The notes below the pieces were generated by a model. It did no database searches. It was given only the letters and a program-made list of their open reading frames with translations, and had not been told where the DNA came from. Positions 10,017 through 41,829 of a stretch of DNA of 49,538 nt are shown one piece after another. The translations under genes and the position numbers were made by a program. Source of the DNA: Patescibacteria group bacterium. GTDB lineage: Bacteria; Patescibacteriota; Minisyncoccia; UBA6257; GWB1-50-10. Position 1 is the stretch's first letter, and each line of letters opens with the position of its first letter. Location of the stretch: positions 1 through 49,538 of the forward strand of contig JASEHZ010000002.1 of the NCBI GenBank assembly GCA_030018585.1, given 5' to 3'.

Positions 10017-10186
10017 ATAAATTGTGTAAAAATATTAATTATCCTCCTGAAAAATTTAAAACAAAGAAAGATATGCGCTTTTTACTTTTTTAATTTTCTA
10101 CTCTGTACAATGCTTTTTGAAACTTTTCCACTTATTCACATTACTATTACTACCACTAAAGATAATAATAAAGATAATAATAAAAA
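10017..10186. promoter_or_regulatory. candidate oriC segment (dnaA-dnaN intergenic)
   Basis: Two DnaA-box-like 9-mers lie together: TTTTCCACT (10124-10132) and TTATTCACA (10132-10140). They are followed by a perfect tandem 12-mer AAAGATAATAAT x2 (10158-10181) in very AT-rich DNA. Confidence 0.35.
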
Positions 10187-11302
10187 ATGAAATTAATAAT
10201 TCTTAGAAATAATCTTTTAAGAGCTTTCGGAACAGAAGAGCGGGTAATTAGCAATAATGTAAATTTACCCATTTTAAAAAATATTTTTCTAGAAGCTCAA
10301 GAAGGAAAAATTATTCTTACAGCAACCGATTTAGAACTAGCAATTCAATACAATCTGTCAGGAAAAATAATAGAAAGCGGTTCTGTTGTTATGCCGTTTT
10401 TTATTATCAATTCAATTATTAAAAATTTAACCAGCGAAAGGGTAAATATTGAAGAAAAAGAAAAAAAGATATTTTTAAGTACCGATAATTATGAAGCAGT
10501 AATTCAAGGACAAAGCCCGAAAGAGTTCCCGATTATTCCGTCAATTCATAATAATAAACAATTTGTAAAAATTTCTGTAGCTTTTTTAAAAGAAGCTTTA
10601 GAAAACGTTATTGGAGCAACTCAATATTCAGAAATTAGACCGGAAATAAGCGGTGTTTTTGTAAAATTTTTTGACGAAAAAATGTTTTTTGTGGCAACAG
10701 ATAGTTTTCGTTTGGCGGAAAAAAGCTTGGGAAAAAACCAATTTCAAACATCGTTTGATAATTTTTCGGCTATTATTCCTTTAAAAACAGCCGAAGAATT
10801 ATTGAGAGCATTAAGCGGTTTAGATGGTGACGATGAGAACGTCGAAATTTTTATAGATCTTAATCAAATTTTATTTAAAACAAACGTTTGGCAAATCACT
10901 TCCCGTCTTATTGATGGGAAATTTCCGGAATATCAGGGAGTTATTCCAAAAGAAACGAAAACCGAAGTTACTTTAAATAAACAAGAATTTATAAACGCAA
11001 TAAAATTAACCAGCACTTTTGCCGGAAGGACGCAGGATGTTTCAATTAAAAGCGGAGAAAACAGAAAATATATTGAACTTACATCATCAGACAGCTCGTT
11101 AGGAGAAAACAAATACCAAGTACTTTCAAAAGTAAAAGGAGAAAAGGTTTCTGTAACCTTTAATTGGCGGTACCTTATTGAAGGGTTAAAAATTTACAAA
11201 AGCGAGGAAATTGTTTTGGGAGCCAATTTAACAGGACCAGCCGTAATTAAGAATCCAAACGACAATTCTCTTATTTATGTATTGATGCCTATAAAGAATT
11301 AG
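10187..11302 (+). CDS. dnaN: DNA polymerase III beta sliding clamp
   Basis: It is the 371-aa ORF directly after dnaA. Typical clamp text includes ATDSFRLAE and SRLIDGKFPEY. Confidence 0.9.
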   Translation: MKLIILRNNLLRAFGTEERVISNNVNLPILKNIFLEAQEGKIILTATDLELAIQYNLSGKIIESGSVVMPFFIINSIIKNLTSERVNIEEKEKKIFLSTDNYEAVIQGQSPKEFPIIPSIHNNKQFVKISVAFLKEALENVIGATQYSEIRPEISGVFVKFFDEKMFFVATDSFRLAEKSLGKNQFQTSFDNFSAIIPLKTAEELLRALSGLDGDDENVEIFIDLNQILFKTNVWQITSRLIDGKFPEYQGVIPKETKTEVTLNKQEFINAIKLTSTFAGRTQDVSIKSGENRKYIELTSSDSSLGENKYQVLSKVKGEKVSVTFNWRYLIEGLKIYKSEEIVLGANLTGPAVIKNPNDNSLIYVLMPIKN

Positions 11303-11311
11303 ATAGCCGTT

Positions 11312-13777
11312 TTAATGAAAAATAATCGTTGATACGTTAGTTTCTTTGCCGGATCGACTTTTAACTTTGATTTCTAAAAGATTTTGGGGTTCTAAATTTT
11401 TGTTTATGGTAAAAACAAAGCTATAACCTGTTTGATTATTAGCAAAGCCGACAACACTGTTGATTAATTCACGATTTAAAAAGAGCTCTATTTTTTCTAA
11501 ACCTTTTGATGTTTGGATGTCAGCTTTAACAGAAAATGGTACGTTTACAAAAGAACCTGTTTTTGGTTTTAAATTTTCTATTATCACACTATCTGAAAGA
11601 ACAGCACCCTCCGGATCAATGGTGTTTATATTTGTAAAGTCAATATTTTTGGGAATAGGTAAATTATACTGGTAAAAATTCGGAATATTAAGGCGAGCCC
11701 AATCAAGGACGGCCTTTTCCCAATTTTCAAAAGCCAGATCATTATTGAGATCGTCTGGCAAAGGGCCTAGAGGGTTGTTTTTGTCCACATAAAAAAGAAT
11801 TGAATGAATTTGAGGATATTGTTTTCCGTCAATAAGTGGGACAAACTCTCCAAGTCCATTTAGCATTGGTTTTGAAGAACGAAAAGGAGGGTCTGGCTTT
11901 TCAAATGTTTCTGGAGGGTATTTTTTTAAAACCTCTTTTAGAAAATCACTCCAAATAGGGACAGCCGCTAAAATACTGCTTCCTTTTCTTTGCATAGGCG
12001 CATTATCGTTGTTGCCCGCCCAAACACCAATAACTAAAGAAGGAGTATAACCTATAGCCCAAGCATCGCGATAATCTTCGGTCGTGCCTGTTTTTAAAGC
12101 GACTTCATGATCAGGGAATATTGTAAGTGATAGGCTATTTTCGTAAAGCGGGGCTCGGAGATCAATGTCGGACAAAATTTGATTTATAAGCTTTGGATAT
12201 GACGGATCAATAACGCGTTTGTTTTTGTCTTGGTACTCGTCTAAAATGTCGTTTTTGCTGTTTTCTACTTTCAAAACCAAAGATTGTTCGTGTAAGACCC
12301 CGTTTTGGCTTAAGACGCCATAAGCATTAATCAAATCTATTAGTTTTACTTCGCCTCCACCTAAAGTGAGAGAAAGACCGTAGCGCCACCTTTCTTTTAA
12401 AGTAGAAATGCCGAAGGCGTGTAAATTTCTAAGAACATCATCAAAACCGGCAAGGTAAAGAGTTTTTACGGCCGGCACGTTTATTGATTGAGCTAATGCT
12501 TGTTCCATACTTACTGGACCGCGGAATTTGCCGTCAAAGTTTTGCGGCTGATAACTTGTTTCGGGATTGTTTCGGGTATCAAACTCTGTTTGGACGTCAT
12601 AAAGTATTGTTTTAGGAGAAAACCCTTTTTGGAAAGCGGTTAGGTAAACAAAAGGTTTTAAAGCAGAGCCTGGTTGGCGCAAGCCCTGAGTAACAACATT
12701 AAAATTGCCGTCAATTTCTTGGTCAAAGTAGTTTCTAGACCCTGTTAATGCTAAAATTTGACCAGTTTTAGGGTCTTGAACTAACATAGCTGCGTTTTTG
12801 CTAGCATATAATTCTTCGTTCCTTTTAGCGCCAAGAGCTATAACTCTCTCGGCTAGTTGTTGCAGGTTCCAATCAAGAGTAGTTGTTATTTTTAATCCGC
12901 CGTTTATAATCATATTTTCGCCGAAACGATTTATTAAGTATTCTTTTACAAACAGGGAAAAATGAGGAGCTTTTATTGCGCCGAGAGAAGGTGGTGCAAA
13001 ATCAATATCTTCTTTTTTTGCAGCAGAGCTTTGAGCTTCGGTTATAAAACCTAACTCCGTCATCCGATCAAGAATGCGATTTTTTCTTTCTAAGAGTTCG
13101 GAAACATGAAGGCCCCAAGGCGAATAATAGCTGGGAGCTTTTGTTAAACTTGCCAGTATTGCCATTTCTGCCAAAGATAAGGCCTTAACAGACTTATTGA
13201 AATAAGTTTGACTAGCAGCTTCTACGCCATAAGCATTAGAGCCGTAAGGAATTTGGTTTAAGTAAAAAGAGAATATTTCGTCTTTATTATATTGTGATTC
13301 TAGCTTAATCGCCAAAATAAGCTCTTTTAATTTTCTAGTATAAGTTTTTTCCGGCGAAAGAAAAACACTTTTTACTAGCTGTTGGCTGATAGTTGAACCG
13401 CCTTGAGTGATATGACCTGTTTTTAGATTGTTTAAGAAAGCGCGAATAATAGCTATCCAATTGAAAGCCGGTTGGTTATAAAAATTAGCGTCTTCAGCAG
13501 CAAGAGTGGCTAGTTTTAGGTTTTTAGGAATTTCTTCAAAAGGAATAATAGTTCTTTTTTCTTCGCCATGGAGTTCATAAAGCAAGATTTGACCAGTTCG
13601 GTCATAGAGTTTTGTTGATTGATTGATTTGTCTAGTGTTAAAATTATCAAGCGAGGGAAGAGACTTTATAATCAAGAAGACGTAAACGCCGACACCAATA
13701 ACAGAAAGCAAAATTAAAAAGAAAAACATAAGAAAAGTTTTGGAAAAAGATCTAGTTTTTTTATGCTTTTTAGCCAT
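11312..13777 (-). CDS. class A penicillin-binding protein (PBP1A-type transglycosylase/transpeptidase)
   Basis: GT51 motifs are EDANFYNQPAFNW and GGSTISQQLVK. Transpeptidase motifs are SALKP (SxxK) and KTGTT. An N-terminal TM anchor is present. Confidence 0.9.
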   Translation of the reverse strand: MAKKHKKTRSFSKTFLMFFFLILLSVIGVGVYVFLIIKSLPSLDNFNTRQINQSTKLYDRTGQILLYELHGEEKRTIIPFEEIPKNLKLATLAAEDANFYNQPAFNWIAIIRAFLNNLKTGHITQGGSTISQQLVKSVFLSPEKTYTRKLKELILAIKLESQYNKDEIFSFYLNQIPYGSNAYGVEAASQTYFNKSVKALSLAEMAILASLTKAPSYYSPWGLHVSELLERKNRILDRMTELGFITEAQSSAAKKEDIDFAPPSLGAIKAPHFSLFVKEYLINRFGENMIINGGLKITTTLDWNLQQLAERVIALGAKRNEELYASKNAAMLVQDPKTGQILALTGSRNYFDQEIDGNFNVVTQGLRQPGSALKPFVYLTAFQKGFSPKTILYDVQTEFDTRNNPETSYQPQNFDGKFRGPVSMEQALAQSINVPAVKTLYLAGFDDVLRNLHAFGISTLKERWRYGLSLTLGGGEVKLIDLINAYGVLSQNGVLHEQSLVLKVENSKNDILDEYQDKNKRVIDPSYPKLINQILSDIDLRAPLYENSLSLTIFPDHEVALKTGTTEDYRDAWAIGYTPSLVIGVWAGNNDNAPMQRKGSSILAAVPIWSDFLKEVLKKYPPETFEKPDPPFRSSKPMLNGLGEFVPLIDGKQYPQIHSILFYVDKNNPLGPLPDDLNNDLAFENWEKAVLDWARLNIPNFYQYNLPIPKNIDFTNINTIDPEGAVLSDSVIIENLKPKTGSFVNVPFSVKADIQTSKGLEKIELFLNRELINSVVGFANNQTGYSFVFTINKNLEPQNLLEIKVKSRSGKETNVSTIIFH

Positions 13778-32206: not shown

Positions 32207-32827
32207 ATGTCTAGAAAAATAATTCCCGTTAAAAGTCACGCCGAACATAGCCACAAATTAAAATATAAAATTTGCGTTTCTGGCGCAGCTGAAACCGGCC
32301 ATTGCAACAAAGATGCTTTGGAAAAAGCCGAAATTGTCGGACGGGAAGTAGCAAAAAGAGGATTAGTTTTGGTGACTGGCGCGACGACCGGCATCCCTTA
32401 TTGGTCGGCAAAAGGCGCAAAAGCTGAAGGAGGGATTGTGGTTGGTTTTTCGCCGGCGGCTTCAAAAGCCCAGCATATAAAAACATATCATTTGCCGACT
32501 GATTATCATGATATTATTGTTTATACCGGTTTTGAGTATGCCGGCAGAAATTTAATTTTAACAAGGTCATCTGATGCAATTATTGTGATTTGCGGCCGTT
32601 TAGGCACTTTAAATGAATTCACTATTGGTTTTGAAGATCAAAAACCGATGGGTATTCTTTTGGGTAGTGGCGGCGTGGCTGATTTAATTCCTGGCCTTTT
32701 GGAAAATGCTCATCGGGGTCCAGGCAAAGTAATTTTTTCTCATGATCCGGCCGAACTTCTTGATAAACTTCTCGATTTAGTTGAATCTGAAGAAGAAGCA
32801 AATAACGTAAAAGGTCGGGTGTTTTAA
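32207..32827 (+). CDS. TIGR00725/LOG-like Rossmann-fold protein
   Basis: It contains KICVSGAAETGHC, VLVTGATTGIP and GGIVVGFSP, with GTLNEF near the C-terminus. Confidence 0.55.
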   Translation: MSRKIIPVKSHAEHSHKLKYKICVSGAAETGHCNKDALEKAEIVGREVAKRGLVLVTGATTGIPYWSAKGAKAEGGIVVGFSPAASKAQHIKTYHLPTDYHDIIVYTGFEYAGRNLILTRSSDAIIVICGRLGTLNEFTIGFEDQKPMGILLGSGGVADLIPGLLENAHRGPGKVIFSHDPAELLDKLLDLVESEEEANNVKGRVF

Positions 32828-32835
32828 ATATTTCC

Positions 32836-33102
32836 GTGGCAACAAAAAAAGAACCAAAACCAATCGGTGTAGTCACTCACTATTTCGGCGGCATTAGCGT
32901 GGCAATTGTTAAATTTAACAAAGCCGTTGATGTCGGCACCAAAGTGCATTTTAGGGGGGCAACCACTGATTTTGAAGAAACAATAAAATCAATGCAGTTT
33001 AATCATGAAGATATTAAAACCGCCAAGAAAAATCAGGAAGTCGGCATTAAAGTTGGCGATAAAGTAAGAGAAGGCGATGAAGTTTATGCCGTTGAAGAAT
33101 AA
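32836..33102 (+). CDS. small translation-elongation-factor-like beta-barrel protein
   Basis: An 88-aa ORF with a GTG start. IGVVTHYFGGISVAIVKF...GDEVYAV resembles the stand-alone EF-Tu-domain-2-like proteins. Confidence 0.5.
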   Translation: MATKKEPKPIGVVTHYFGGISVAIVKFNKAVDVGTKVHFRGATTDFEETIKSMQFNHEDIKTAKKNQEVGIKVGDKVREGDEVYAVEE

Positions 33103-33124
33103 GGTTATTTTTTGATAAATTGTT

Positions 33125-34234
33125 ATGGGTAAAAATTCAGTGCTAGCAATTGGATTGTTGGCTGGTACGATTATTGGCGCAGGGATTTTTTCACTGCCTT
33201 ATATTGTAAGCCGCTTAGGTATTTTAAGCGGTTTTTTTTATTTAATTGCTTTTGCGTTGATTTATTTTTTTATTCATTTTATGTATGCTGAAATAATTAA
33301 AGCCGGTAGCGAAAAGCACCAGTTTTTTTATTTTGCGGAAAAATATTTGTCAAAAAAAATCGCTCATTTCGCTTCTTGGGTAGTGCTTGCCGGTTTGGTT
33401 TTCGCTCTTACAGTTTATTTGATTTTAGCGCCGACTTTTTTTGAAATTGCTTTTGGTATTTCGGCAAATTTAGCAGTTTTTATTTTTTGGTTTTTAGGAT
33501 CAGTTTTTATGTTTGCCCGTCTTAATGTCCTTGGTTGGGCGGAAGTTTTGGGAATAGTTGGTATCTTTAGCATTATTTTTATAGTTCTTTTTTCTTCTTT
33601 TGGTTTAGAACTTAAAACGCCGATTTTTCAAAAAATTGATTTACCACTATTTCTTTTGCCGTTCGGGCCTCTGCTTTTTTCTTTAGCTGGTCGGTCAGCT
33701 ATTCCGGAGGTGGTGGCGGAATATAAAAGCGCAGCAAAACAAGGAAAAGTAATTAATCTGAAAAAAGTGATTTTTTGGGGAACGATTATCCCAGTAATTG
33801 TTTACGGATTTTTTATAGTAAGCGTCCTTAAAATAAGTCCTCAAGTGTCGCCGGAAAGTCTAGACAGTTTAACGGGTTTATCACCCACACTTTTTTCTCT
33901 TTTAGGAATAATGGGACTAATTACGCTTTGGACTTCTTATTTTGTTATTGGCATTAACGTAAAAGATATTTTATCTCTTGATTTAAAATACCCTAAATTT
34001 ATCAGCGCCTTAATTGTTCTTATTGTTCCGCCTCTTTTTTATTTTTTGGGCATCAGGAATTTTTTGGAAACTTTAAGCATTGCCGGCGGCGTATTTGTGG
34101 CATTGGAGAGTATTTTTGTGGTTATGATGTGGCAAAAAGCTTTTCCGACGAGTAAATGGCGTCAGATAAGTTTTTTGCTTTATGCTGTTTTTATTGCCGC
34201 CATTGTTTATCAATTTATAAATTTTGTATTTTAA
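33125..34234 (+). CDS. amino-acid-permease-like polytopic membrane protein
   Basis: It has about 10-11 hydrophobic helices. The N-terminal GTIIGAGIFSLPY motif is typical of amino acid/aromatic amino acid permeases. Confidence 0.55.
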   Translation: MGKNSVLAIGLLAGTIIGAGIFSLPYIVSRLGILSGFFYLIAFALIYFFIHFMYAEIIKAGSEKHQFFYFAEKYLSKKIAHFASWVVLAGLVFALTVYLILAPTFFEIAFGISANLAVFIFWFLGSVFMFARLNVLGWAEVLGIVGIFSIIFIVLFSSFGLELKTPIFQKIDLPLFLLPFGPLLFSLAGRSAIPEVVAEYKSAAKQGKVINLKKVIFWGTIIPVIVYGFFIVSVLKISPQVSPESLDSLTGLSPTLFSLLGIMGLITLWTSYFVIGINVKDILSLDLKYPKFISALIVLIVPPLFYFLGIRNFLETLSIAGGVFVALESIFVVMMWQKAFPTSKWRQISFLLYAVFIAAIVYQFINFVF

Positions 34235-34968
34235 GTTTGTTTTAGAAACAGTGAATCCCAAATTACATTGAACATTGCGCTTTGCATTTGCGCTAATTCC
34301 TCGCTTTCGATTAAAACCATTACTAAGTCAGCTTTAAGAGAAAACATTGCAATTTTGTTTTTCCACATAAAAGTAAGGCCGTGATATTCGTATTTTACCG
34401 GAATAATTCTCACTTCTCTTAATTCCTGGGGTCCTAAGCGTTGCCGTTCGCGAGCTTTTGGCGATTCGCGCAAAATTACTTTGATCGGAATTTTCGCTTT
34501 AATGCGCTTTTTTACAAATTCAGGAAACACTTCATCAAGAACAGTAAAAAGATCGTCAGCTGAAGAAAAAGCTTTTAGTTCTTTAGCTTCTTTTAGGATT
34601 TCTTCAAGCATGATTCGCGCGCCTTCTTTGCCTTGGTAAAAACGGACTGTGGGGCGCGTTTTTGCTTTTCCGTATAGTGCTGTAAATTCCGGTAAAGCGT
34701 GTTCTAAAAGTTTGGCGCGTTCTTTGGCAAAATCAGAAAGTTTTTTAGGTTCTTCTGTGCCGTAGTTCAAAACATTATGCTTTTGAAGCGAGTACACCAA
34801 TGCTTTATTTTTTAAAGACTCTAAAATTTCATACGTGGTAGATCGGGCGATGCCCGCTTTTCTCGCAATCTTCTGCACAGAGGATTGGCCGAGTTCAAGC
34901 ACAGCAAGATATACTGACGCTTCCTTTTGATTTAATCCGAATTGTTTAAGAATTTTTTCTAAATCCAT
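34231..34968 (-). CDS. TrmB-family transcriptional regulator
   Basis: The N-terminal wHTH is LGLNQKEASVYLAVLELGQSSVQKIARKAGIARSTTYEILESL. Length is 245 aa. Confidence 0.75.
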   Translation of the reverse strand: MDLEKILKQFGLNQKEASVYLAVLELGQSSVQKIARKAGIARSTTYEILESLKNKALVYSLQKHNVLNYGTEEPKKLSDFAKERAKLLEHALPEFTALYGKAKTRPTVRFYQGKEGARIMLEEILKEAKELKAFSSADDLFTVLDEVFPEFVKKRIKAKIPIKVILRESPKARERQRLGPQELREVRIIPVKYEYHGLTFMWKNKIAMFSLKADLVMVLIESEELAQMQSAMFNVIWDSLFLKQT

Positions 34969-35081
34969 AAAAATACGTGCGTTTTAATTTATCTTTTTAA
35001 AATCAAATTTATAAGTTTGGTTTATAGACTCGGTTAAATATTAAATTTATTGTTTCAGCATTCCTTTGATTTCTAGTATCT

Positions 35082-35100
35082 TTGTCGGAATTTCCGACAA
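35082..35100. promoter_or_regulatory. perfect 9-1-9 palindrome, operator-like
   Basis: TTGTCGGAA-T-TTCCGACAA lies in the divergent region between the TrmB-family gene and the 35256 gene. A 1-nt spacer excludes an RNA hairpin. Confidence 0.4.
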
Positions 35101-35169
35101 CAAGGATTATATAAATAATAGCATATTATATCACTTTTGTAAGCAGATTGAATAATGACGTCGGCAATG

Positions 35170-35198
35170 TTGACATTTATAATAAAATATGCAATGAT
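35170..35198 (+). promoter_or_regulatory. candidate promoter of the island's first gene
   Basis: TTGACA (35170-35175) is followed by a 17-nt spacer ending in TGC, then AATGAT (35193-35198). Confidence 0.35.
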
Positions 35199-35255
35199 AA
35201 AGACAGTTAATTAACAATTTGTTTAATAATTCAAAAAAGGAGTTGTAGAAATGAA

Positions 35256-35609
35256 ATGAAAGTAGAACTAGAATCATTAGAGCTTTTTCAAGCCGATATG
35301 GTTGTATGGAACAAAACCGAAGAGTTTCTGATTGTAACAGGTGACCATAACACTACTAAAGGACGGGAATTCTTTGGTCAGCGCGAGCAGGCTTATAATA
35401 ATGCTATCGAAAAAGCGGCTGAAGCAGGTTATAAACTTGTTGTAAATCATTATGAGCCAAACCGATGGATCCGCTATGCCAACAATCCTCGAGCTGTTGG
35501 TAAAATTATTGGATTGCCCATGAAAATAAAAAGAGATGCGCATGGGAATTGGAATTCTTACGATGTTGCGTCGGTGATTGATAAAACTTGGGATGAGATA
35601 ATGGTATAA
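35256..35609 (+). CDS. hypothetical protein
   Basis: A 117-aa ORF with an AAGGAG RBS at 35237-35242. A two-codon ATG-AAA-TGA mini-frame at 35251 overlaps the ATG at 35256. Confidence 0.5.
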   Translation: MKVELESLELFQADMVVWNKTEEFLIVTGDHNTTKGREFFGQREQAYNNAIEKAAEAGYKLVVNHYEPNRWIRYANNPRAVGKIIGLPMKIKRDAHGNWNSYDVASVIDKTWDEIMV

Positions 35610-35936
35610 ACCCCGAAAAGGTACTTACGATGACGAGTATTTTACTTTAGCTGAAGGCAGGTGTGAGTTAGAGCAAGCGGGAGAAAATTTTCGGTTGGTG
35701 GGCAGAGGTTATCAATGTTCTTTCTTGGATTTTAACCCAAAACTACTTTCGATGACTTTAATTCCTATATCAAAGGACTTAAATCTATTCCTATGTTGGA
35801 CCGCAACTCTCTTTGGCAGGAAGTAATATTTGATCCCGAGCCATTTAGCAAAGAACCGGCGGTAGGTCCAGATGGTAGGGTAGATGTAAAAGAAGCCTTG
35901 GGAAGACTGGGAAAGTGGTATATAGATAGCGACTAA
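35602..35936 (+). pseudogene. possible frameshifted/decayed coding remnant
   Basis: Two stop-free stretches lie in adjacent frames: 35602-35826 and 35736-35936. They overlap by about 90 nt and neither has a convincing start. The translations look protein-like (..GTYDDEYFTLAEGRCELEQAGENFRLVGRGYQCSFLDF.. and ..TTFDDFNSYIKGLKSIPMLDRNSLWQEVIFDPEPFSKEPAVGPDGRVDVKEALGRLGKWYIDSD). Confidence 0.3.
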
Positions 35937-36033
35937 AAATCAAGCCAGACGGGTGGGATAAAAATCGTTTCACCCATCTATTAATCTGAAATAATTAAAA
36001 CAAAAATCATTCATTAAAATAAGGAGATTCAAA

Positions 36034-37035
36034 ATGAAATCAATGCAAATTACTCGCCACAACAGGCGAACAAATGGCAGGACATCTGACTCACATCAGG
36101 TGGTCAAAATCATCACTGATTTGGAAACCGCCAAGCAGGCGTTTTCAGAAATTGACAAACGCTTTGCTAAGGTAGCTGGCACGTCAGTCGGGCGGAAACT
36201 GATGACTGCTATCCTTTGGGTAGCAAAACCGGTTCTGCCAAGTAAATGGTATCAAAACTGGGAGCGGAGACTGTCCTTGCTTGAAAATATTCGGGCCGAG
36301 CTTTCGAGCTTGATCGAGGAGGTGGAGGTGGCACTGATCAGCTTAGCCGAGCTAGCCACCACCAAGCAGGCTGAACTTAAAGAGTACGGAGTTCAGCTCA
36401 AACGAGCCAAGGAAGAGCAATGGGACGTTAAACAACTCCGTGAATACCTGTTCGAGGTAGGAAGGGTGCCGAATGCACCAGAAATTTCCTGGCTTCTCGA
36501 TGAACAACTGGAGCTGCTGACACCAGTGCAACTTGCTGACAAAAAGGATGAGTTACTCCAAGTATTGGAGAGTAACATCCACGTCGGCGAGCAAGTTATC
36601 CAACTGATGGCAAAAGTAGCTGAAGCTGGATTAGAGACGCTCGAAAAGGCGGCTATTCAGTACTGGGGCCTGTCCGAGTTCATAGAACCGCTCGAGGTGT
36701 TACGTCAAGCAGCCACAAACGCGGTGGCAGTAAAAAAGTCATCGTTCGAAGCAAAGGAAATTGTTCATCAGTACCTCGGGCAGATTGTATCCAACGTGGA
36801 ACTCAGTATCGAGGCGACTGAACTGCTGCGACAGTTCTTAATCACTGGGCCAGAGACGCATCAGGAACTAACCGAGTATGTGGGGCGACTTGATAACAAA
36901 ATTCAAGGTCTCTACAACTCAGCCAAACGCAGCCAGCTAAAGCAAAGCAGGATTAACCTCTTGTCGCGTACGCCTACACCTACGCCCATCAGTGATTTGT
37001 TATCACCCCAACCGGCCACCAATAATGCCGGTTAA
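36034..37035 (+). CDS. hypothetical all-helical / coiled-coil protein (GC-rich island gene 1)
   Basis: It has an AAGGAG RBS 7 nt upstream. The 333-aa protein is rich in L/E/Q/A with heptad-like stretches and a Pro/Thr tail. Codon usage is unlike the neighbouring genes. Confidence 0.65.
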   Translation: MKSMQITRHNRRTNGRTSDSHQVVKIITDLETAKQAFSEIDKRFAKVAGTSVGRKLMTAILWVAKPVLPSKWYQNWERRLSLLENIRAELSSLIEEVEVALISLAELATTKQAELKEYGVQLKRAKEEQWDVKQLREYLFEVGRVPNAPEISWLLDEQLELLTPVQLADKKDELLQVLESNIHVGEQVIQLMAKVAEAGLETLEKAAIQYWGLSEFIEPLEVLRQAATNAVAVKKSSFEAKEIVHQYLGQIVSNVELSIEATELLRQFLITGPETHQELTEYVGRLDNKIQGLYNSAKRSQLKQSRINLLSRTPTPTPISDLLSPQPATNNAG

Positions 37036-37045
37036 GGAGGATGTC

Positions 37046-38038
37046 ATGAACACGATATGGGGTAAGGATAAGGCGCTGGTTTACCTGGGTGCTCTTGAGA
37101 ACGCACTCAACGGCTTCTTAGTTAACCACCGATTCAACGAACCGCTGTGTATTCTGATTCGTGACATTCTGTTGCGGTACCTCACGCGCCAGCACAACTA
37201 CTTGGCCAATAAAAAGGCGGTAATACTACCGCTAGGTTGGAGTGGCTTTCCACTACTCAAGCGAATGCGGCTCGATAGCGCTGCCTACCTAGGTAAGATC
37301 GTACGAACTATCAAACCCGACCTGTGCTGCCCCAAGCGAATGAAGTGCTATACCAAGGATGACTGGGAGAAAGAGTGGTGTTCTGCGAGGGCACCAACAC
37401 TAGTACTCGAGGTTAAGCCAGAGCTGCAGGAGGATGACCGTACATTGTGGTTGTGGTGGCAGGTATCCAAGTCGCACTGGCTAAAACGAGTCAATCAAAG
37501 AGCTCTAGAAGAGGGAGAATGGCGAGTCGAATTAGGTGATGGCGACGAATTCTGGGTTAACCCTAATGACTTTGTAGATTGCTATGGCCTTCGGTGTAAG
37601 GGGGGCGATGGAGGTCAAGAACTAGTCGTCGGGCTATCGAGAATGACAAGCGGCGGTAGGTTAGAAAATCTTGACGACAGGTGGCGGCGGGTGTTAAAGC
37701 CCAAGCTATTGGTAAAGCTTAAATCGATACTGTCCTCTAAAAAGGTAACCCATTTTCTTAACAGTACGATTGTCAGGTCGCTCATCATCACTGGTTTGGT
37801 TGTCTCGGTCGTCGCCATCATTATTATAGGAAGTACAAAACCAGCAGATAGTACTGAACCAAGAAAAAGGTATACATACCTGCTTTCGGAGAGTGAACGT
37901 AAACATTACTCCCCGGAATGGAAGCAAAAGATATTAGCACGTTATCAACAAGGAGACACCGTCGAATTCCTAGAGACGGTATTTTATACTCCTACGCCTG
38001 TGCTTTTGCAGTGGGAGATAATTCCGAAGGAGAAATAA
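37046..38038 (+). CDS. hypothetical Trp/Cys-rich protein with one C-proximal transmembrane helix (GC-rich island gene 2)
   Basis: An AAGGAGG RBS (37034-37040) lies 5 nt before the ATG at 37046, which is 10 nt after the upstream stop. The TM segment is IVRSLIITGLVVSVVAIIIIG. Confidence 0.6.
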   Translation: MNTIWGKDKALVYLGALENALNGFLVNHRFNEPLCILIRDILLRYLTRQHNYLANKKAVILPLGWSGFPLLKRMRLDSAAYLGKIVRTIKPDLCCPKRMKCYTKDDWEKEWCSARAPTLVLEVKPELQEDDRTLWLWWQVSKSHWLKRVNQRALEEGEWRVELGDGDEFWVNPNDFVDCYGLRCKGGDGGQELVVGLSRMTSGGRLENLDDRWRRVLKPKLLVKLKSILSSKKVTHFLNSTIVRSLIITGLVVSVVAIIIIGSTKPADSTEPRKRYTYLLSESERKHYSPEWKQKILARYQQGDTVEFLETVFYTPTPVLLQWEIIPKEK

Positions 38039-38042
38039 ATCG

Positions 38043-38080
38043 AAACCGAGATTGAAAATTCAGTCTCGGTTTTTTATTTT
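38043..38080 (+). terminator. intrinsic terminator closing the island operon
   Basis: AAACCGAGA-loop-TCTCGGTTT is followed by TTTTTATTTT, starting 5 nt after the stop at 38038. Confidence 0.75.
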
Positions 38081-38133
38081 AGATGTTTGGCGCTTTTCTT
38101 TTCGTGTTAAAAACGCGAGAATTAAATCAATAA

Positions 38134-38239
38134 GCCCCGTTAGATATCAAATTTTAAGCGCAAGGCGTTGGTTAGATATTTTGCGGGGCGAGATAATCTT
38201 ATAAATATGCAAGGGATACTAAGAATATCTAACGGGGTG
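38134..38239. repeat. Inverted-repeat-framed cassette E3 (copy 3 of 3, divergent)
   Basis: The arms are perfect 13-nt repeats: CCCCGTTAGATAT (38135-38147) and ATATCTAACGGGG (38225-38237). A second direct copy, GTTAGATATT, lies at 38171-38180. The final G of the right arm is the first base of the GTG at 38237. Confidence 0.7.
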
Positions 38240-39586
38240 AAAGAAAAGATAATCCGCTTGCTGTTTTTTGTTTTTTTAATTTTTTTACCATTTAGTGCTA
38301 AAAAATTTCTTTTTTCGTTGCCGGCATTGCTGTTTGGGAATCAAATTAATGAATTAAATTCTGTTTTTTTGTTTGCGAGCGATATATTTTTGATTTTGTT
38401 TGTTGTTTCGGTTCTTTGGTTTTGGGGACAGGATTTTAAAAAAATAGTTATTTCAAACAAGCTGATTTTAGTTTTTCTTGTTTTGGGGTTGGTTTCGATT
38501 TTTTTTGCTTCAGATATTTATATGAGTTTTTATTTCAGGTTAAGATTTTTGTTGGTTTCATCTGCGGCGTTTGCGATTGGAGTGTTAATTAAAAATAGCC
38601 TTTTAAAGTTTGATTGCATTATGTTTGGTTTAGGACTTTCCGCGGTTTTCCAGTCAATGGTTGCGATTTTGCAGTTTTTGGCGCAGAAAAGCATTGGCTT
38701 ATGGTTTTTGGGCGAGTCAATAATCAATTTAAATTCCGAAGGCGTGGCGCGGGTTATGATTAATGGCGTAAAAATGCTTAGGGCTTACGGTACGATGCCG
38801 CACGCCAATATTTTAGCTGGATTTTTGATTTTGGGACTTATTGCGCTTTTTTATTTGTTTATTAGGAATTTTAATGATAAGTTTTGGAAAAAATTATTGA
38901 TTTCTGTAGGGATTTTTATTATTTGTTTAGGATTAATCTTTAGTTTTTCCCGTTCAGGCTGGATTGCGGCCTTAATTTCAATAGTTTTATTTTTTGTTTT
39001 GGGATTTTTTAATAAAGCTGAAAGAAAAAAGTTTTGGCAGTTGCTCGCTTTATTATTTTGTATTTTCGCGATTTTATTTTTTGCTTTTGGTTCAATGATT
39101 TTTCCGCGGGCGCATTTTTCGTCCGGAGAAATTTCTGTGAATCACCGAATGATTTATAATAAGATAGGTTTGGAAATTATTAAAGGAAATCCATTAGGCG
39201 TTGGTATTGGCAATCAGGTAATCTTCGGGGTGAATAATGGTTTGTATGAAAAATACGGGCTAAAAGAATCCTGGAGTTGGCAGCCAGTTCACAACATCTA
39301 TCTTCTTATTGGTTCAGAGCTTGGTGTGTTTGGTTTAATAGTGTTTTTGCTCATAATCATTTTTTTAATTTTTCAAAAAGACAACGAAAAAAGGTTTTTG
39401 ATTTTTAAAAAGAATTTAGATTTCAATGTTTTATTAACAATACTTTCGGGGTTTCTGATTTTCGGGCTTTTTGATCACTTTTATTGGGATCTTCAATCTG
39501 GGAGATTGATGTTTTGGCTGGTTTTGGGCATGATGATCGGATTAAGCCCTCGTCGTTCAACGGACCCACGCACTATAATAAATTAA
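38237..39586 (+). CDS. O-antigen ligase (Wzy_C)-family polytopic membrane protein
   Basis: It has about 10-12 TM helices, with FSFSRSGWIAALIS and PVHNIYLLIGSELGVFGL motifs. The start is moved to the GTG at 38237 by analogy with E1 and E2; the ORF track used a TTG at 38168 inside the cassette. Confidence 0.7.
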   Translation: MKEKIIRLLFFVFLIFLPFSAKKFLFSLPALLFGNQINELNSVFLFASDIFLILFVVSVLWFWGQDFKKIVISNKLILVFLVLGLVSIFFASDIYMSFYFRLRFLLVSSAAFAIGVLIKNSLLKFDCIMFGLGLSAVFQSMVAILQFLAQKSIGLWFLGESIINLNSEGVARVMINGVKMLRAYGTMPHANILAGFLILGLIALFYLFIRNFNDKFWKKLLISVGIFIICLGLIFSFSRSGWIAALISIVLFFVLGFFNKAERKKFWQLLALLFCIFAILFFAFGSMIFPRAHFSSGEISVNHRMIYNKIGLEIIKGNPLGVGIGNQVIFGVNNGLYEKYGLKESWSWQPVHNIYLLIGSELGVFGLIVFLLIIIFLIFQKDNEKRFLIFKKNLDFNVLLTILSGFLIFGLFDHFYWDLQSGRLMFWLVLGMMIGLSPRRSTDPRTIIN

Positions 39587-39630
39587 GTGCGGGGCAGGTA
39601 GGACGTAGGTCTCCGACTTGCCCGCCGAAC

Positions 39631-39704
39631 GCCCCTGTAGTGTAATTGGATAACACGTCAGCCTCCGAAGTTGAAGATTGGCTGTTCGAATCAGCCCAGG
39701 GGCA
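39631..39704 (+). tRNA. tRNA-Arg (anticodon CCG)
   Basis: The hand-folded cloverleaf has acceptor GCCCCTG/CAGGGGC and D stem GTGT/ACAC. The anticodon stem is TCAGC/GTTGA with loop CTCCGAA, and the T arm is GGCTG-TTCGAAT-CAGCC. The discriminator is A and no CCA is encoded. Confidence 0.9.
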
Positions 39705-39733
39705 CAAAAAAACGGCAGGCGGGAGCCGGAAAT

Positions 39734-39758
39734 TGAGGTTCAATTCCTCATGAGGGCA
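39734..39758 (+). other. tRNA 3'-end-like remnant (T arm + acceptor 3' strand)
   Basis: TGAGG-TTCAATT-CCTCA followed by TGAGGGC-A resembles the last 25 nt of a tRNA. No matching 5' half (GCCCTCA) is present upstream. Confidence 0.3.
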
Positions 39759-39807
39759 CGATTTGTTAAACAAAACCATGTTTGAAAGAATGAAATAAAT
39801 AAACGAA

Positions 39808-40908
39808 ATGCAAGAATTAAATATTGAACAAAAAACTAATTTAGTCGATGCGTGGCTTAGTATTGTAGTAGATAACGAAGCAAAACCAAACGATTTAGAG
39901 AATTGGAACAATCAAAAAGTTAAAAATTGGTTTTACAAAACATTAATGAAAGGTGTTAGTGACTTAGTGGATAGGTGGAGATTGAATCTCGATGATAAAT
40001 TAGTAGAAAGTATAAGAAACGAGTTTAATTCGGATAAAAAAATTAAACTTGAATTAGAATATATAGAATTGATTCGTTTACGAATTGACGAGTTTTTAAA
40101 GAAACACCCAGTAGAAGACAGGAGTACAAAATGGGATTCGTGGCCAAAAAAAATGCGAGGAACCAAATCATTTAACTGTGTTGGTGGAACGTTTATCGGT
40201 TTATCATTATTGGAAAAAGCAAGGGTTACATCTTATTACGGTAATCCCGTTTCGCACGTTTTAAACATTATTAAGCTTTCCAATGGAGAGTTTGTTTATG
40301 CTGATTTTACAAATAATCAAGTAAGAAAAATAAAACCAGAAAAAGTACAAATTGGTAATGTAGATACATTAAAGCTCAAAGATCCAGAAATTATTTATCG
40401 ATATATTCCGCTTTTAGATAAAAAAGATTCGCCGTCCTCAATTTTAGGGAATTTGAATTCATTACGACACGACGCATTGGATGATGGCGTTGATCCGTTC
40501 GATAAGAAAGAAGCAGTCAGTTGTTTTAATGTTTTTGAAGAAGAATTTAAGAAGAATAATTTTGCAGAACTTCGTGATAGATTTTATCCTTCAGGCGTTA
40601 CTCTTCGACGATCAGAGGAAATGCGTGGCGAAGAAGAAAGAATAGATAAAATTCAGGAACTTAATAAACGATCAAAAGAATATCTTTTAACCCTAGGATC
40701 CAAACAGGCAAGTTTGGTGAGGAATGAAATAAAAAATAATAGCGAAGCAGTAAAAAGATTTCTTATGGAGGATAATATACAAATTCTTGGTTTGTTTACT
40801 TTAGAAGCGAAGAAAGTACTTGAGTTAATTAAGGAAGATCTTACAAGCATAAAAAAAGAAAATTCTAAATTATTTCATGATTTTATTGATTGGATGATAA
40901 GTAAGTAA
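39808..40908 (+). CDS. hypothetical protein, possible transglutaminase-like Cys-His-Asp core
   Basis: In this 366-aa ORF, the segment FNCVGGTFIGLSLLE...VSHVLNIIKLSNGEFVYADFT has the Cys...His...Asp order and spacing seen in transglutaminase-fold cysteine peptidases. This is a weak call made by eye. Confidence 0.5.
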   Translation: MQELNIEQKTNLVDAWLSIVVDNEAKPNDLENWNNQKVKNWFYKTLMKGVSDLVDRWRLNLDDKLVESIRNEFNSDKKIKLELEYIELIRLRIDEFLKKHPVEDRSTKWDSWPKKMRGTKSFNCVGGTFIGLSLLEKARVTSYYGNPVSHVLNIIKLSNGEFVYADFTNNQVRKIKPEKVQIGNVDTLKLKDPEIIYRYIPLLDKKDSPSSILGNLNSLRHDALDDGVDPFDKKEAVSCFNVFEEEFKKNNFAELRDRFYPSGVTLRRSEEMRGEEERIDKIQELNKRSKEYLLTLGSKQASLVRNEIKNNSEAVKRFLMEDNIQILGLFTLEAKKVLELIKEDLTSIKKENSKLFHDFIDWMISK

Positions 40909-40911
40909 ATT

Positions 40912-41829
40912 TTGGCCGTGATTAAGATTTTGAAGAATAAAAAAATTGCAAACTTTATCACTTTCAAACTTGGTGGGCGGGCCGAGTTTTTTTGTTTAGC
41001 AAAAAATCTGGATGAGATAATTGAAGCAATTAAATGGGCAAAAAAAAGAAAAATTAAATGGCAGATTTTTGCCGGTGGCAGTAATGTTATTTTTCCGGAT
41101 AAATTAATAAAAGGATTATTAATTTGCATCCGGGGTGGAAGAAATTTGGTTCAAAAGGATAGGTTGATTGTTGATGCGGGCGTGCCATTAGTGGGTGTTG
41201 TAAAAAAATCGATTTCTCTCGGGTTAAAGGGCTTGGAATTGCTTTCAGGGATTCCAGGTACTGCGGGTGGCGCAATAGTGGGCAATGCAGGCGCTTATGG
41301 TTATTCTATTTCCGAAGTTGTGGAAAAAGTTGAAGTTTGGAATGAAAAAAGAAAGGCTTGGTTGAATAATAAAGAGTGTCATTTTGCTTATCGGGAAAGT
41401 GTTTTTAAAAAGAAGTCTTATGTTGTGCTTCGGATAGTTTTGAAATTTAAAAAAGGCAATAAAAAAGAACTTCAAAAAATTTCACAAAGCATTATAAAAC
41501 AAAGAAACAAAAAATTTAACCTAAAATTAAAATGCCCGGGCAGTTATTTTAAAAATATTTTAGTGGAAAGTTTATCAAAAAAATCTTTGAAGTTGATTGA
41601 TAAAAACAAAATTAAAGAAGGAAAAGTCCCGGCCGGTTATTTATTAGAACAAGTCGGTGCAAAAGGCATGCAAGTCGGAAAAATAAAAGTGGCTGATTTT
41701 CACGGCAATATGATCATGAATTTAGGTAGTGGCAGGACAAAAGACGTAAAAAAACTTGCAGGGATTTTGAAAAATAAAGTTTGGAAAAAATTCGGAATTA
41801 AACTTAAGGAGGAAGTTAGATATTTTTAA
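40912..41829 (+). CDS. murB: UDP-N-acetylenolpyruvoylglucosamine reductase
   Basis: Motifs are FKLGGRAEFF, GGSNV, GIPGTAGGAIVGNAGAYG and a C-terminal GSYFKN. The start is TTG at 40912 or GTG at 40918. Confidence 0.8.
   Translation: MAVIKILKNKKIANFITFKLGGRAEFFCLAKNLDEIIEAIKWAKKRKIKWQIFAGGSNVIFPDKLIKGLLICIRGGRNLVQKDRLIVDAGVPLVGVVKKSISLGLKGLELLSGIPGTAGGAIVGNAGAYGYSISEVVEKVEVWNEKRKAWLNNKECHFAYRESVFKKKSYVVLRIVLKFKKGNKKELQKISQSIIKQRNKKFNLKLKCPGSYFKNILVESLSKKSLKLIDKNKIKEGKVPAGYLLEQVGAKGMQVGKIKVADFHGNMIMNLGSGRTKDVKKLAGILKNKVWKKFGIKLKEEVRYF

What the first reader, a model, noticed from the sequence alone, without database searches (positions are those of the whole stretch)
35170..38080. Compositionally foreign island carrying a two-gene module of unknown function
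G+C jumps sharply inside 36034-38038. Hand counts give 35/60 at 36301-36360 and 34/60 at 37381-37440, against 20/60 at 10201-10260 in dnaN. Codon choice shifts toward CTG, GCC and CGG. The two genes have strong AAGGAG(G) ribosome sites, are separated by 10 nt and share one strong terminator (38043-38080). Gene 1 is a 333-aa all-helical, coiled-coil-like protein. It is loosely reminiscent of TelA-type proteins, but I cannot support that from sequence alone. Gene 2 is a 330-aa Trp/Cys-rich protein with a single TM helix near the C-terminus and a short tail beyond it. The island sits next to a TrmB-family regulator and cassette E3, and about 1.6 kb from a tRNA gene with a tRNA remnant beside it. 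A small, horizontally acquired soluble-plus-membrane pair is the typical shape of defence, abortive-infection or toxin-type modules. No known domain is visible to me.
Basis: partly seen in the sequence, partly recalled or inferred. Interest (0 to 1): 0.65.

Follow-up and report, generated by a model that had tools for sequence, protein, structure and literature searches.

The report
Foreign island carrying two orphan genes
A tiny-genome (CPR/Patescibacteria) bacterium has picked up a 3.85-kb piece of foreign DNA whose GC-rich half encodes two intact proteins with no detectable relative in billions of public sequences; that it was acquired is well supported, what it does is unknown, and such islands are common in these bacteria.

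Summary
Window 36001-38000 has the highest GC (0.4825 vs 0.375, +4.3 SD) and the most deviant tetranucleotide profile (z = 6.3) of any 2-kb window in the 682-kb genome. Both genes rank 3rd-4th of 478 ORFs by GC3. The RBSs, the 10-nt gap and the terminator are as described.

Foreign origin is strongly supported. In the same-genus genome and three family relatives, the flanking permease-like and O-antigen-ligase genes are adjacent. The true insertion is therefore 34235-38080 (3,846 bp). It is a mosaic: a native-GC left half (CPR-type TrmB regulator plus a frameshifted orphan gene) and a GC-rich right half (g1-g2).

The "module" and "defence" readings could not be supported. Neither protein has a detectable homologue, including g2 in an exhaustive HMMER search of 1.84 billion representatives. 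There are no PADLOC, Pfam, PHROG or NCBIfam hits. Structure models are low-confidence and fold searches non-significant. The Pfam TelA model fails. The island has no integrase, and the nearby "tRNA remnant" is unrelated to it.

Best reading: a recently acquired orphan operon for a helical cytoplasmic protein plus a single-pass membrane protein, function unproven. It is an ordinary kind of feature with modest interest.

The parts
34235..38080 (.). Full strain-specific insertion (3,846 bp, GC 0.427), lying between the permease-like gene (33125-34234) and the ancestral spacer in front of the O-antigen-ligase gene
   Evidence: G001 contig C21 is colinear with window 32480-34147 and then jumps to 38238-39564. 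The same adjacency is seen in G003, G004 and G006. The junctions were read.
34231..34968 (-). TrmB-family HTH regulator (245 aa) with native-like GC3 of 0.33; part of the insertion
   Evidence: Pfam PF01978, E 7.8e-15. Absent from G001-G007. More than 200 Patescibacteria homologues, the best 63-65% identical. GC by codon position.
35082..35100 (.). Perfect 9-1-9 palindrome TTGTCGGAATTTCCGACAA in the divergent promoter region. It is a candidate operator and overlaps the predicted start of the TrmB transcript.
   Evidence: Sequence. The minus-strand promoter-like site 35134-35106 ends 6 nt upstream of it. The core is not found in loci of TrmB homologues.
35155..35198 (+). Promoter-like sites facing the island genes (TTGACA-17-AATGAT with an extended TG; ATGACG-17-TATAAT)
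   Evidence: These are consensus matches only; the count does not exceed shuffled controls.
35256..35609 (+). 117-aa orphan ORF with native-like GC3 (0.33)
   Evidence: No family hits and no relative in genome contigs.
35602..35936 (+). Gene remnant readable only across two frames (35602-35826, then 35736-35936); likely a pseudogene continuing the 35256 ORF
   Evidence: Stop-to-stop ORF list. No Pfam or PHROG hit for the read-through.
36034..37035 (+). g1: 333-aa orphan protein. All-helical with two helices of about 60 residues, no TM helix, no Cys, an Arg-rich N-terminus and a Pro/Thr-rich C-tail. GC3 is 0.54.
   Evidence: Homologue searches are negative.
37046..38038 (+). g2: 330-aa orphan protein. 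It has a Trp/Cys-rich N-terminal domain of about 240 aa with no signal peptide, one TM helix at about 241-263, and a 67-aa C-terminal alpha/beta domain. GC3 is 0.52.
   Evidence: Exhaustive phmmer found only the protein itself. Further negatives.
38042..38080 (+). Intrinsic terminator (14-pair stem, 4-nt loop, T run) that ends the operon and the insertion
   Evidence: sequence.
38081..38133 (.). Ancestral intergenic spacer (AGATGTTT...AATTAAATCAATAA), homologous to the 40-nt spacer of G001; not part of the island
   Evidence: sequences printed and compared by eye.
38134..38239 (.). E3 foldback element on the ligase start codon. It is a separate small insertion, absent in G001.

Best explanation
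SHOWN. Window 34235-38080 is a 3.85-kb insertion specific to this lineage, at a site where five relatives lack it (four of them with the two flanking genes adjacent). It is a mosaic.
- The left half has the genome's own composition. It carries a TrmB-family regulator typical of Patescibacteria and a frameshifted orphan gene.
- The right half (36034-38080) is the most compositionally foreign DNA in the genome. It is an intact bicistronic unit: a strong RBS on each gene, the g1 stop codon inside the g2 RBS (translational coupling), and one terminator.
- g1 is a soluble all-helical protein. g2 is a single-pass membrane protein.
- Neither has a detectable homologue, nor does either match any Pfam, NCBIfam, PHROG or PADLOC model.

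INFERRED.
(1) The g1-g2 segment arrived recently, because its GC3 has not drifted toward the host's. The donor had roughly 50% GC and weak codon bias, and was most probably a mobile element or phage, since orphan genes concentrate there.
(2) No recombinase gene and no tRNA lie at either border; only a 7-nt TATTTTA repeat is present. Entry by DNA uptake and illegitimate or microhomology recombination, or decay of a larger element, is therefore more likely than site-specific integration.
(3) g2 has no signal peptide and carries Lys/Arg before the TM helix. It probably sits with its 240-aa Cys/Trp-rich domain in the cytoplasm and its 67-aa domain outside. g1, made in step with it, probably docks onto it to form a membrane-associated two-protein complex.
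(4) Transcription probably starts at the promoter-like sites at 35155-35198 and runs through the pseudogene, possibly under the adjacent TrmB-type regulator.
(5) My leading guess for the role is accessory conflict-type cargo acting at the membrane, such as phage exclusion, abortive infection or a toxin-like function. I put this at only about 25-30%.

The overall confidence figure mixes about 0.9 for the acquisition and anatomy with this low figure for function.
For: Composition. This is the highest-GC and most tetranucleotide-deviant 2-kb window of the genome, and GC3 ranks 3-4 of 478.

Codon usage: g1 and g2 do not correlate with native genes (r about 0 or negative), whereas TrmB and even the C2 recombinase do (r 0.3-0.7).

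Empty site in G001, G003, G004 and G006.

Real coding: the open frames of 346 and 365 codons exceed all 1000 shuffles (maximum 254). GC1 > GC3 > GC2.

Operon signals.

Architecture.

Orphan status.

No known family.

Context: genomic islands are frequent in Patescibacteria (PMC12455944).
Against: - Nothing shows expression or protein interaction. No sequencing runs were available, even for core genes.
- With no homologues there is no evidence of purifying selection. A recent arrival can be intact by chance, and the gene next door is already broken.
- Codon usage in g1 and g2 is nearly flat, and the two do not correlate with each other (r = -0.16).
- Structure models are poor (pLDDT 50 and 41), so the topology and docking ideas rest on sequence heuristics.
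- g1 did not get an exhaustive HMMER search, so distant relatives of this coiled-coil-like protein may exist.
- The promoter-like sites are no more frequent than in shuffled sequence.
Confidence: 0.5

Rival explanations
1. Functionless passenger DNA. g1-g2 are recently captured foreign ORFs, taken up for example as environmental DNA by a naturally competent CPR cell. They have simply not yet been inactivated and do nothing for this host.
For: The neighbouring island gene is already frameshifted. There are no homologues, so there is no sign of conservation. Codon usage is flat and unadapted to the host. No mobility gene or defence signature is present.
Against: A 0.68-Mb streamlined genome is expected to purge useless DNA. 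Both ORFs are intact over 2 kb, with strong, correctly spaced RBSs, coupling and a clean terminator.
Confidence: 0.25
2. One reading: a defence, abortive-infection or toxin-type module in which the soluble protein senses or regulates and the membrane protein kills or protects.
For: The support is only shape and context: a small, horizontally acquired soluble-plus-membrane pair in a variable region that also holds several other insertions. ClyA/Nhe-type helical bundles appear among the non-significant fold hits for g1.
Against: PADLOC gives no hit for g2 and only a LmuB match at E 0.55 for g1. There are no Pfam, NCBIfam or PHROG hits. No conserved pairing can be shown. g1 has no hydrophobic segment of the kind pore-forming head domains carry (maximum KD19 of 1.34). 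All fold-search hits have E >= 0.03 and TM <= 0.35, from a model with pLDDT 50.
Confidence: 0.15
3. An envelope-stress module of the TelA / PspA type: a long helical-bundle protein that works at the membrane with a membrane partner.
For: g1 is about 330 aa, all-helical, with two helices of about 60 residues. The top hits in the viral structure library include three phage proteins annotated tellurite-resistance or TelA (E 0.06, 0.61 and 0.67). It is paired with a membrane protein.
Against: The Pfam TelA model finds nothing in the protein at E <= 1 or in the whole genome at E <= 10, although it does ring in control genomes. tblastn against 50,697 phage records finds nothing. Fold hits are non-significant (TM 0.26), and generic coiled coils (SMC, chemoreceptors) score equally well.
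Confidence: 0.08
4. An assembly artefact: a chimeric join that placed DNA from another organism of the metagenome inside this contig.
For: This is a metagenome-type assembly of 43 contigs. There is an abrupt GC step at about 36030 and no reads were available to check it.
Against: The foreign segment lies in the interior of a 49.5-kb contig. Both flanks continue the synteny seen in relatives across a 3.85-kb interval. The segment begins and ends with AT-rich host-like signals (RBS, terminator), and the ancestral spacer resumes exactly after the terminator. A double chimeric join at one site is very unlikely.
Confidence: 0.03

Closest known systems
Genomic islands of Patescibacteria/CPR genomes carrying hypothetical genes (as surveyed in PMC12455944), and the general 'novel gene pool' of prokaryotic genomic islands
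   Same: It has atypical GC and tetranucleotide content. It is absent from close relatives at a syntenic site. Its cargo is orphan genes, and it sits in a variable region with other small insertions.
   Different: It has no integrase, transposase or tRNA at its borders. It is very small (3.85 kb) and mosaic, combining one CPR-like half with one strongly foreign half.
TelA / toxic-anion-resistance family (Pfam PF05816), including phage-encoded TelA-like proteins
   Same: The size (about 330-390 aa) and an all-helical long-bundle prediction are similar. There are weak fold-search echoes.
   Different: There is no sequence match to the family model. The structural match is non-significant. Membership is not supported.
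ClyA/Hbl/Nhe-type alpha-helical bundle proteins
   Same: Both are elongated helical bundles of about 300-350 aa encoded next to a partner gene. NheA appears among the fold hits (prob 0.93, but E 0.18 and TM 0.34).
   Different: There are no Pfam hits. g1 has no hydrophobic head or tongue segment. The partner g2 is not a paralogous helical bundle. The model is too poor to judge.
Bitopic membrane proteins with a large cytoplasmic N-domain, one TM helix and a small ferredoxin-like outer domain (for example GspL / PilN-O type assembly proteins)
   Same: The overall g2 layout matches: about 240 aa inside, a TM helix, and about 67 aa of alpha/beta domain outside. One weak local fold hit is to a T2SS membrane-protein domain (5hl8; E 2.5, 40 columns).
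   Different: There is no sequence-family hit and the fold hit is non-significant. The inner domain is Cys/Trp-rich and cannot be modelled.

Membership tests
Horizontally acquired genomic island | Composition (GC, GC3, oligonucleotides) atypical for the host genome | tested here: met
   This is the top 2-kb window of the genome for GC (+4.3 SD) and for tetranucleotide deviation (z 6.3). GC3 ranks 3-4 of 478. The result applies to 36034-38080 only; the left half is host-like.
Horizontally acquired genomic island | Absent from close relatives at a conserved syntenic site | tested here: met
   The flanking genes are adjacent in G001 (same genus) and in G003, G004 and G006.
Horizontally acquired genomic island | Mobility gene (integrase, transposase) and/or tRNA target with flanking direct repeats | tested here: not met
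   No recombinase domain is present in any island ORF. The borders carry only a 7-nt TATTTTA repeat. The nearest tRNA is 1.5 kb away, is ancestral, and is unrelated to the borders.
TelA / toxic anion resistance protein (PF05816) | Match to the family HMM above the curated cut-off (30 bits) | tested here: not met
   There is no TelA hit for g1 at E <= 1. The family model searched against the six-frame genome finds nothing at E <= 10, while control genomes ring.
TelA / toxic anion resistance protein (PF05816) | TelA-like fold | tested here: inconclusive
   The best hit in the viral structure library is a phage 'tellurite resistance protein' at E 0.06 and TM 0.26. The query model has pLDDT 50.
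Known anti-phage defence systems (PADLOC-DB 2.0) | Match of at least one component to a defence-system HMM | tested here: not met
   g1's only hit is LmuB at E 0.55 (6 bits). g2 has none.
ClyA/Hbl/Nhe alpha-helical pore-forming family | Family HMM match, and a hydrophobic head or beta-tongue segment | tested here: not met
   No Pfam hit. The maximum 19-residue hydropathy of g1 is 1.34, with no membrane-insertion segment. Fold hits are non-significant.
Conserved two-gene module (toxin-antitoxin or abortive-infection type pair) | Co-occurrence of the two genes in other genomes | not testable with these tools
   No homologue of either gene was found anywhere, so co-occurrence cannot be scored.
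Prophage remnant | Match of island proteins to phage protein families or phage genomes | tested here: not met
   PHROGs gives only E >= 0.04 noise. tblastn against 50,697 phage records and IMG/VR pattern scans are negative.
TrmB-family transcriptional regulator (PF01978), for the island's left-end gene | N-terminal TrmB winged-helix domain above the cut-off | tested here: met
   54.9 bits against a 25.6-bit cut-off, E 7.8e-15. More than 200 homologues in Patescibacteria.

The most novel reading that the evidence does not exclude
g1 and g2 are the first seen members of an undescribed two-protein, membrane-acting system, such as phage exclusion, abortive infection, or a factor used by the episymbiont against or on its host cell. 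In this reading the system was carried by an unknown mobile element of a roughly 50%-GC donor and retained in a 0.68-Mb genome because it is useful.
Probability: 0.12. Interest if true: 0.6.

Novelty: new member of a known kind. Interest (0 to 1): 0.27.

Why it matters
The finding gives a clean, well-bounded example of recent gene gain in an ultra-small CPR genome. It has an exact empty site in a sister genome, no recombinase, and a mosaic make-up. That is useful for thinking about how streamlined, naturally competent episymbionts acquire DNA.

The two proteins are true orphans. For g2 this holds against representatives standing for about 15 billion proteins. If they prove functional they would define new families.

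As it stands, this is one more orphan-bearing island of a type already known to be common in Patescibacteria. No testable functional hypothesis emerges beyond "membrane-associated pair".

Tried and rejected
- Family libraries (Pfam, NCBIfam, PHROGs, PADLOC) on g1, g2, the 117-aa ORF and the read-through remnant gave nothing usable.
- Homologue searches found only the query itself or nothing: the word-indexed search of 5.8 billion proteins; exhaustive phmmer of g2 against 1.84 billion representatives; six-frame searches of 60 relatives for both proteins and 400 phylum genomes for g1; tblastn against phages and plasmids; PDB sequences; and pattern scans of viral, metagenome and genome contigs.
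- No paralogue exists in the genome. g1, g2 and the nearby inserted 366-aa protein are unrelated to one another.
- AlphaFold single-sequence models were poor. Three Foldseek searches gave no hit with E < 0.03.
- The TelA hypothesis was rejected on the family-model test.
- I looked for g1/g2-like genes beside the closest TrmB homologues and found none; the contexts vary.
- I tested whether the 19-bp palindrome core recurs beside TrmB homologues; it does not, in the four contexts fetched.
- I tested for a donor shared with the genome's serine-recombinase elements using codon usage; there is no correlation.
- I sought sequencing runs for the island, its left half and 10 kb of core DNA, and none was served. 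Coverage, junction reads, empty-site variants and expression could therefore not be examined.
- The idea that the nearby tRNA fragment marks the island's integration site was rejected.
- rRNA as an explanation for the other high-GC windows was rejected.
Full report
**Observation.** The three 60-nt hand counts reproduce exactly (35, 34 and 20 G+C). The stretch 36034-38038 has GC 0.485, against 0.371 for the window and 0.375 for the genome.

The window is the whole contig C13 of a 681,944-bp, 43-contig assembly, rated 99.5% complete. Across that genome, the 2-kb window starting at 36001 has the highest GC of 2,404 windows (0.4825; mean 0.375, sd 0.025). It also has the largest tetranucleotide deviation of 1,212 windows (z = 6.3).

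The two ORFs have GC3 of 0.536 and 0.524, against a genome mean of 0.329 (sd 0.046). They rank 3rd and 4th of 478 ORFs of at least 150 aa.

- The other high-GC windows (C43, C40) are huge Gly/Ala/Thr/Val-rich surface proteins with ordinary GC3 (0.35-0.39). They contain no rRNA.
- The only other GC3 outliers are serine-recombinase genes or fragments (C2, C37, C34) and a DGR-like cassette on C34.

The codon claim is partly right. CTG rises from 0.05 to 0.24. GCC and CGG barely move. The main change is loss of the host's favoured TTA, GTT, AGA and TCT.

**Gene anatomy.**
- g1 (36034-37035, 333 aa) is preceded by TAAGGAG at a 7-nt spacing.
- The g1 stop codon lies inside the AAGGAGG of g2 (37046-38038, 330 aa), which has a 5-nt spacing. 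The gap is 10 nt, so translational coupling is likely.
- A 14-pair hairpin plus a T run at 38042-38080 ends both genes.
- The open frames of 346 and 365 codons exceed the longest frame in every one of 1000 shuffles (maximum 254). GC1 > GC3 > GC2. These are therefore real coding sequences.
- g1 is predicted all-helical, with two helices of about 60 residues. It has no Cys and no hydrophobic segment.
- g2 has 13 Trp and 7 Cys. The Cys include a CC-x5-C-x10-C cluster and a C-x4-C pair. It has no signal peptide and one TM helix at about 241-263. Its C-terminal part is 67 aa, not "short", and is the only part modelled with confidence (pLDDT about 70-78).

**True extent and origin.** Six-frame and nucleotide comparison with relatives gives an exact empty site.
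- In the one same-genus genome (G001, contig C21), the permease-like gene (window 33125-34234) is followed after about 55 nt by the O-antigen-ligase gene.
- The alignment runs from window 32480-34147 straight to 38238-39564. The same adjacency holds in family-level relatives G003, G004 and G006.
- G001's spacer (AGATGTTT...AATTAAATAA, then ATG) reappears in the window at 38081-38133, immediately after the terminator.
- The insertion is therefore 34235-38080 (3,846 bp). The E3 foldback element at 38134-38239 is a separate event.

The insertion is a mosaic.
- The left 1.8 kb (GC 0.365) holds a TrmB-family regulator (Pfam E 7.8e-15) and an orphan gene broken across frames (35256-35609, 35602-35826, 35736-35936). 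Both have host-like GC3 of 0.33.
- The TrmB protein is absent from the seven nearest genomes. It has more than 200 homologues in other Patescibacteria, the best 63-65% identical.
- The right 2.05 kb (GC 0.482) is g1-g2. Their codon usage is nearly flat and uncorrelated with native genes. TrmB and even the C2 recombinase correlate with native genes at r = 0.3-0.7.

No island ORF has a recombinase domain. The borders share only TATTTTA.

**The tRNA argument.** It does not hold.
- All five relatives have a tRNA-Arg(CCG) right after the ligase gene.
- The "remnant" is the 3' part of that ancestral tRNA. In the window the gene is split by a 34-nt hairpin insert and a 108-nt insert that carries a replacement tRNA-Arg(CCG).
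- This lies 1.5 kb beyond the island border.

**What the proteins are.** Every route to homology failed.
- There are no Pfam, NCBIfam, PHROG or PADLOC matches of any weight.
- Each protein finds only itself among 5.8 billion clustered proteins.
- g2 finds only itself in an exhaustive phmmer of 1.84 billion representatives.
- Nothing was found in 60 relatives for either protein, or in 400 phylum genomes for g1.
- Nothing was found in phage or plasmid records or in PDB sequences.
- Pattern scans of viral, metagenome and genome contigs were negative.
- There is no paralogue in the genome.

Single-sequence AlphaFold models are poor (pLDDT 50 and 41). Foldseek returns no hit below E 0.03.
- For g1, the list mixes SMC arms, chemoreceptors and ClyA/Nhe-type bundles in the PDB.
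- In the viral library it includes phage "tellurite resistance/TelA" proteins (E 0.06, TM 0.26). This is the generic signature of a long helical bundle.

I tested the TelA idea directly. The Pfam TelA model finds nothing in g1 at E <= 1. It finds nothing in the six-frame genome at E <= 10, although it does ring in control genomes. Membership is not supported.

For g2, nothing is significant. A weak local resemblance of the C-terminal domain to small ferredoxin-like or T2SS periplasmic domains is only a lead.

**Most likely explanation.** Shown: a lineage-specific, compositionally foreign, intact and tightly organised two-gene operon encoding a soluble helical protein and a bitopic membrane protein, inside a small mosaic insertion with no mobility gene.

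Inferred:
- The segment arrived recently, because its GC3 has not ameliorated, from a donor of about 50% GC and probably from a mobile element.
- Entry was by DNA uptake and illegitimate recombination, or the segment is what remains of a larger decayed element.
- g2 is oriented N-in. It has no signal peptide and carries Lys/Arg before the TM helix.
- g1 is co-translated and docks on g2.
- Transcription starts at the promoter-like sites at 35155-35198 and runs through the pseudogene. It is possibly influenced by the TrmB-type regulator, whose candidate operator (35082-35100) overlaps the predicted start of its own transcript.

A conflict-type role at the membrane is my leading functional guess, at only about 25-30%. 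The main rival is that the DNA is a not-yet-decayed passenger (about 25%). An assembly chimera is very unlikely given the synteny on both flanks. It could not be checked with reads, because no runs are served even for core DNA.

**Comparison with what is known, and novelty.** Genomic islands are common in Patescibacteria. PMC12455944 reports hundreds in 125 genomes, up to 13% of genome length. Islands are also known to concentrate novel genes. This one meets the compositional and empty-site criteria but lacks the mobility hallmarks.

The proteins themselves belong to no known family, but nothing shows a new mechanism. I rate it a new member of a known kind, with modest interest. Its module, defence, TelA and tRNA arguments are not.

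Noticed in passing
window 39546-39760: tRNA nested in a tRNA. The ancestral tRNA-Arg(CCG) is intact at this position in G001 and is present after the ligase gene in G002, G003, G004 and G006. In the window it is split into three pieces. A 34-nt hairpin insert sits in the D-loop (39565-39598). A 108-nt insert lies right after the anticodon (39616-39723). That insert is flanked by inverted repeats (CTTGCCCGCCG...CGGCAGGCGGG) and carries a different, complete tRNA-Arg(CCG) (39631-39705). The middle piece has 3 substitutions that weaken the old anticodon stem. The 'orphan tRNA 3' end' is therefore the old gene's 3' part, 100% identical to G001.
   Followed up: partly
window 39761-40916: The 366-aa unknown protein gene (39808-40908) is another lineage-specific insertion. 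In G001 and G004 the tRNA-Arg is followed directly by murB. Together with the island, E3 and the tRNA inserts, this makes at least four independent insertions within 7 kb relative to G001, so the region is a plasticity zone. The gene has native-like low GC and is unrelated to g1.
   Followed up: partly
genome contig C34 about 9938-12502 (locus L022): A likely diversity-generating retroelement. It has an RT-like ORF (9938-10969, minus strand) and a four-helix-bundle-like ORF (11053-11367). A template-like repeat reads ...VAVNVNWNGDDREWNFNANALDGVRWNDGNCVFSG. The C-terminus of the 228-aa target gene (11816-12502) reads ...VAVNVRWLGGDREWHFRANALDRVRWDDGDCVFSGS. Asn codons in the template differ in the target, which is the adenine-mutagenesis pattern. 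GC3 is about 0.55.
   Followed up: no
genome contigs C2 15133-16755, C37 171-764 (opposite strand), C34 822-1397 (locus L023): There are high-GC3 large serine-recombinase genes or fragments at contig ends, one of them beside a tRNA (C34 1443-1514). They suggest repeated or variable integrative elements that break the assembly. Unlike g1/g2, the C2 copy's codon usage correlates with native genes.
   Followed up: partly
window 35082-35100: The perfect 19-bp palindrome lies at about +1 to +18 of the TrmB gene's predicted promoter (-10 at 35111-35106, minus strand). That geometry fits autorepression. Its core TCGGAANTTCCGA was not found beside four fetched TrmB homologues.
   Followed up: partly
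window 34231-34234: The permease-like gene and the inserted TrmB gene converge and overlap by 4 nt at their stop codons. The left island junction therefore lies exactly at the permease stop codon.
   Followed up: yes
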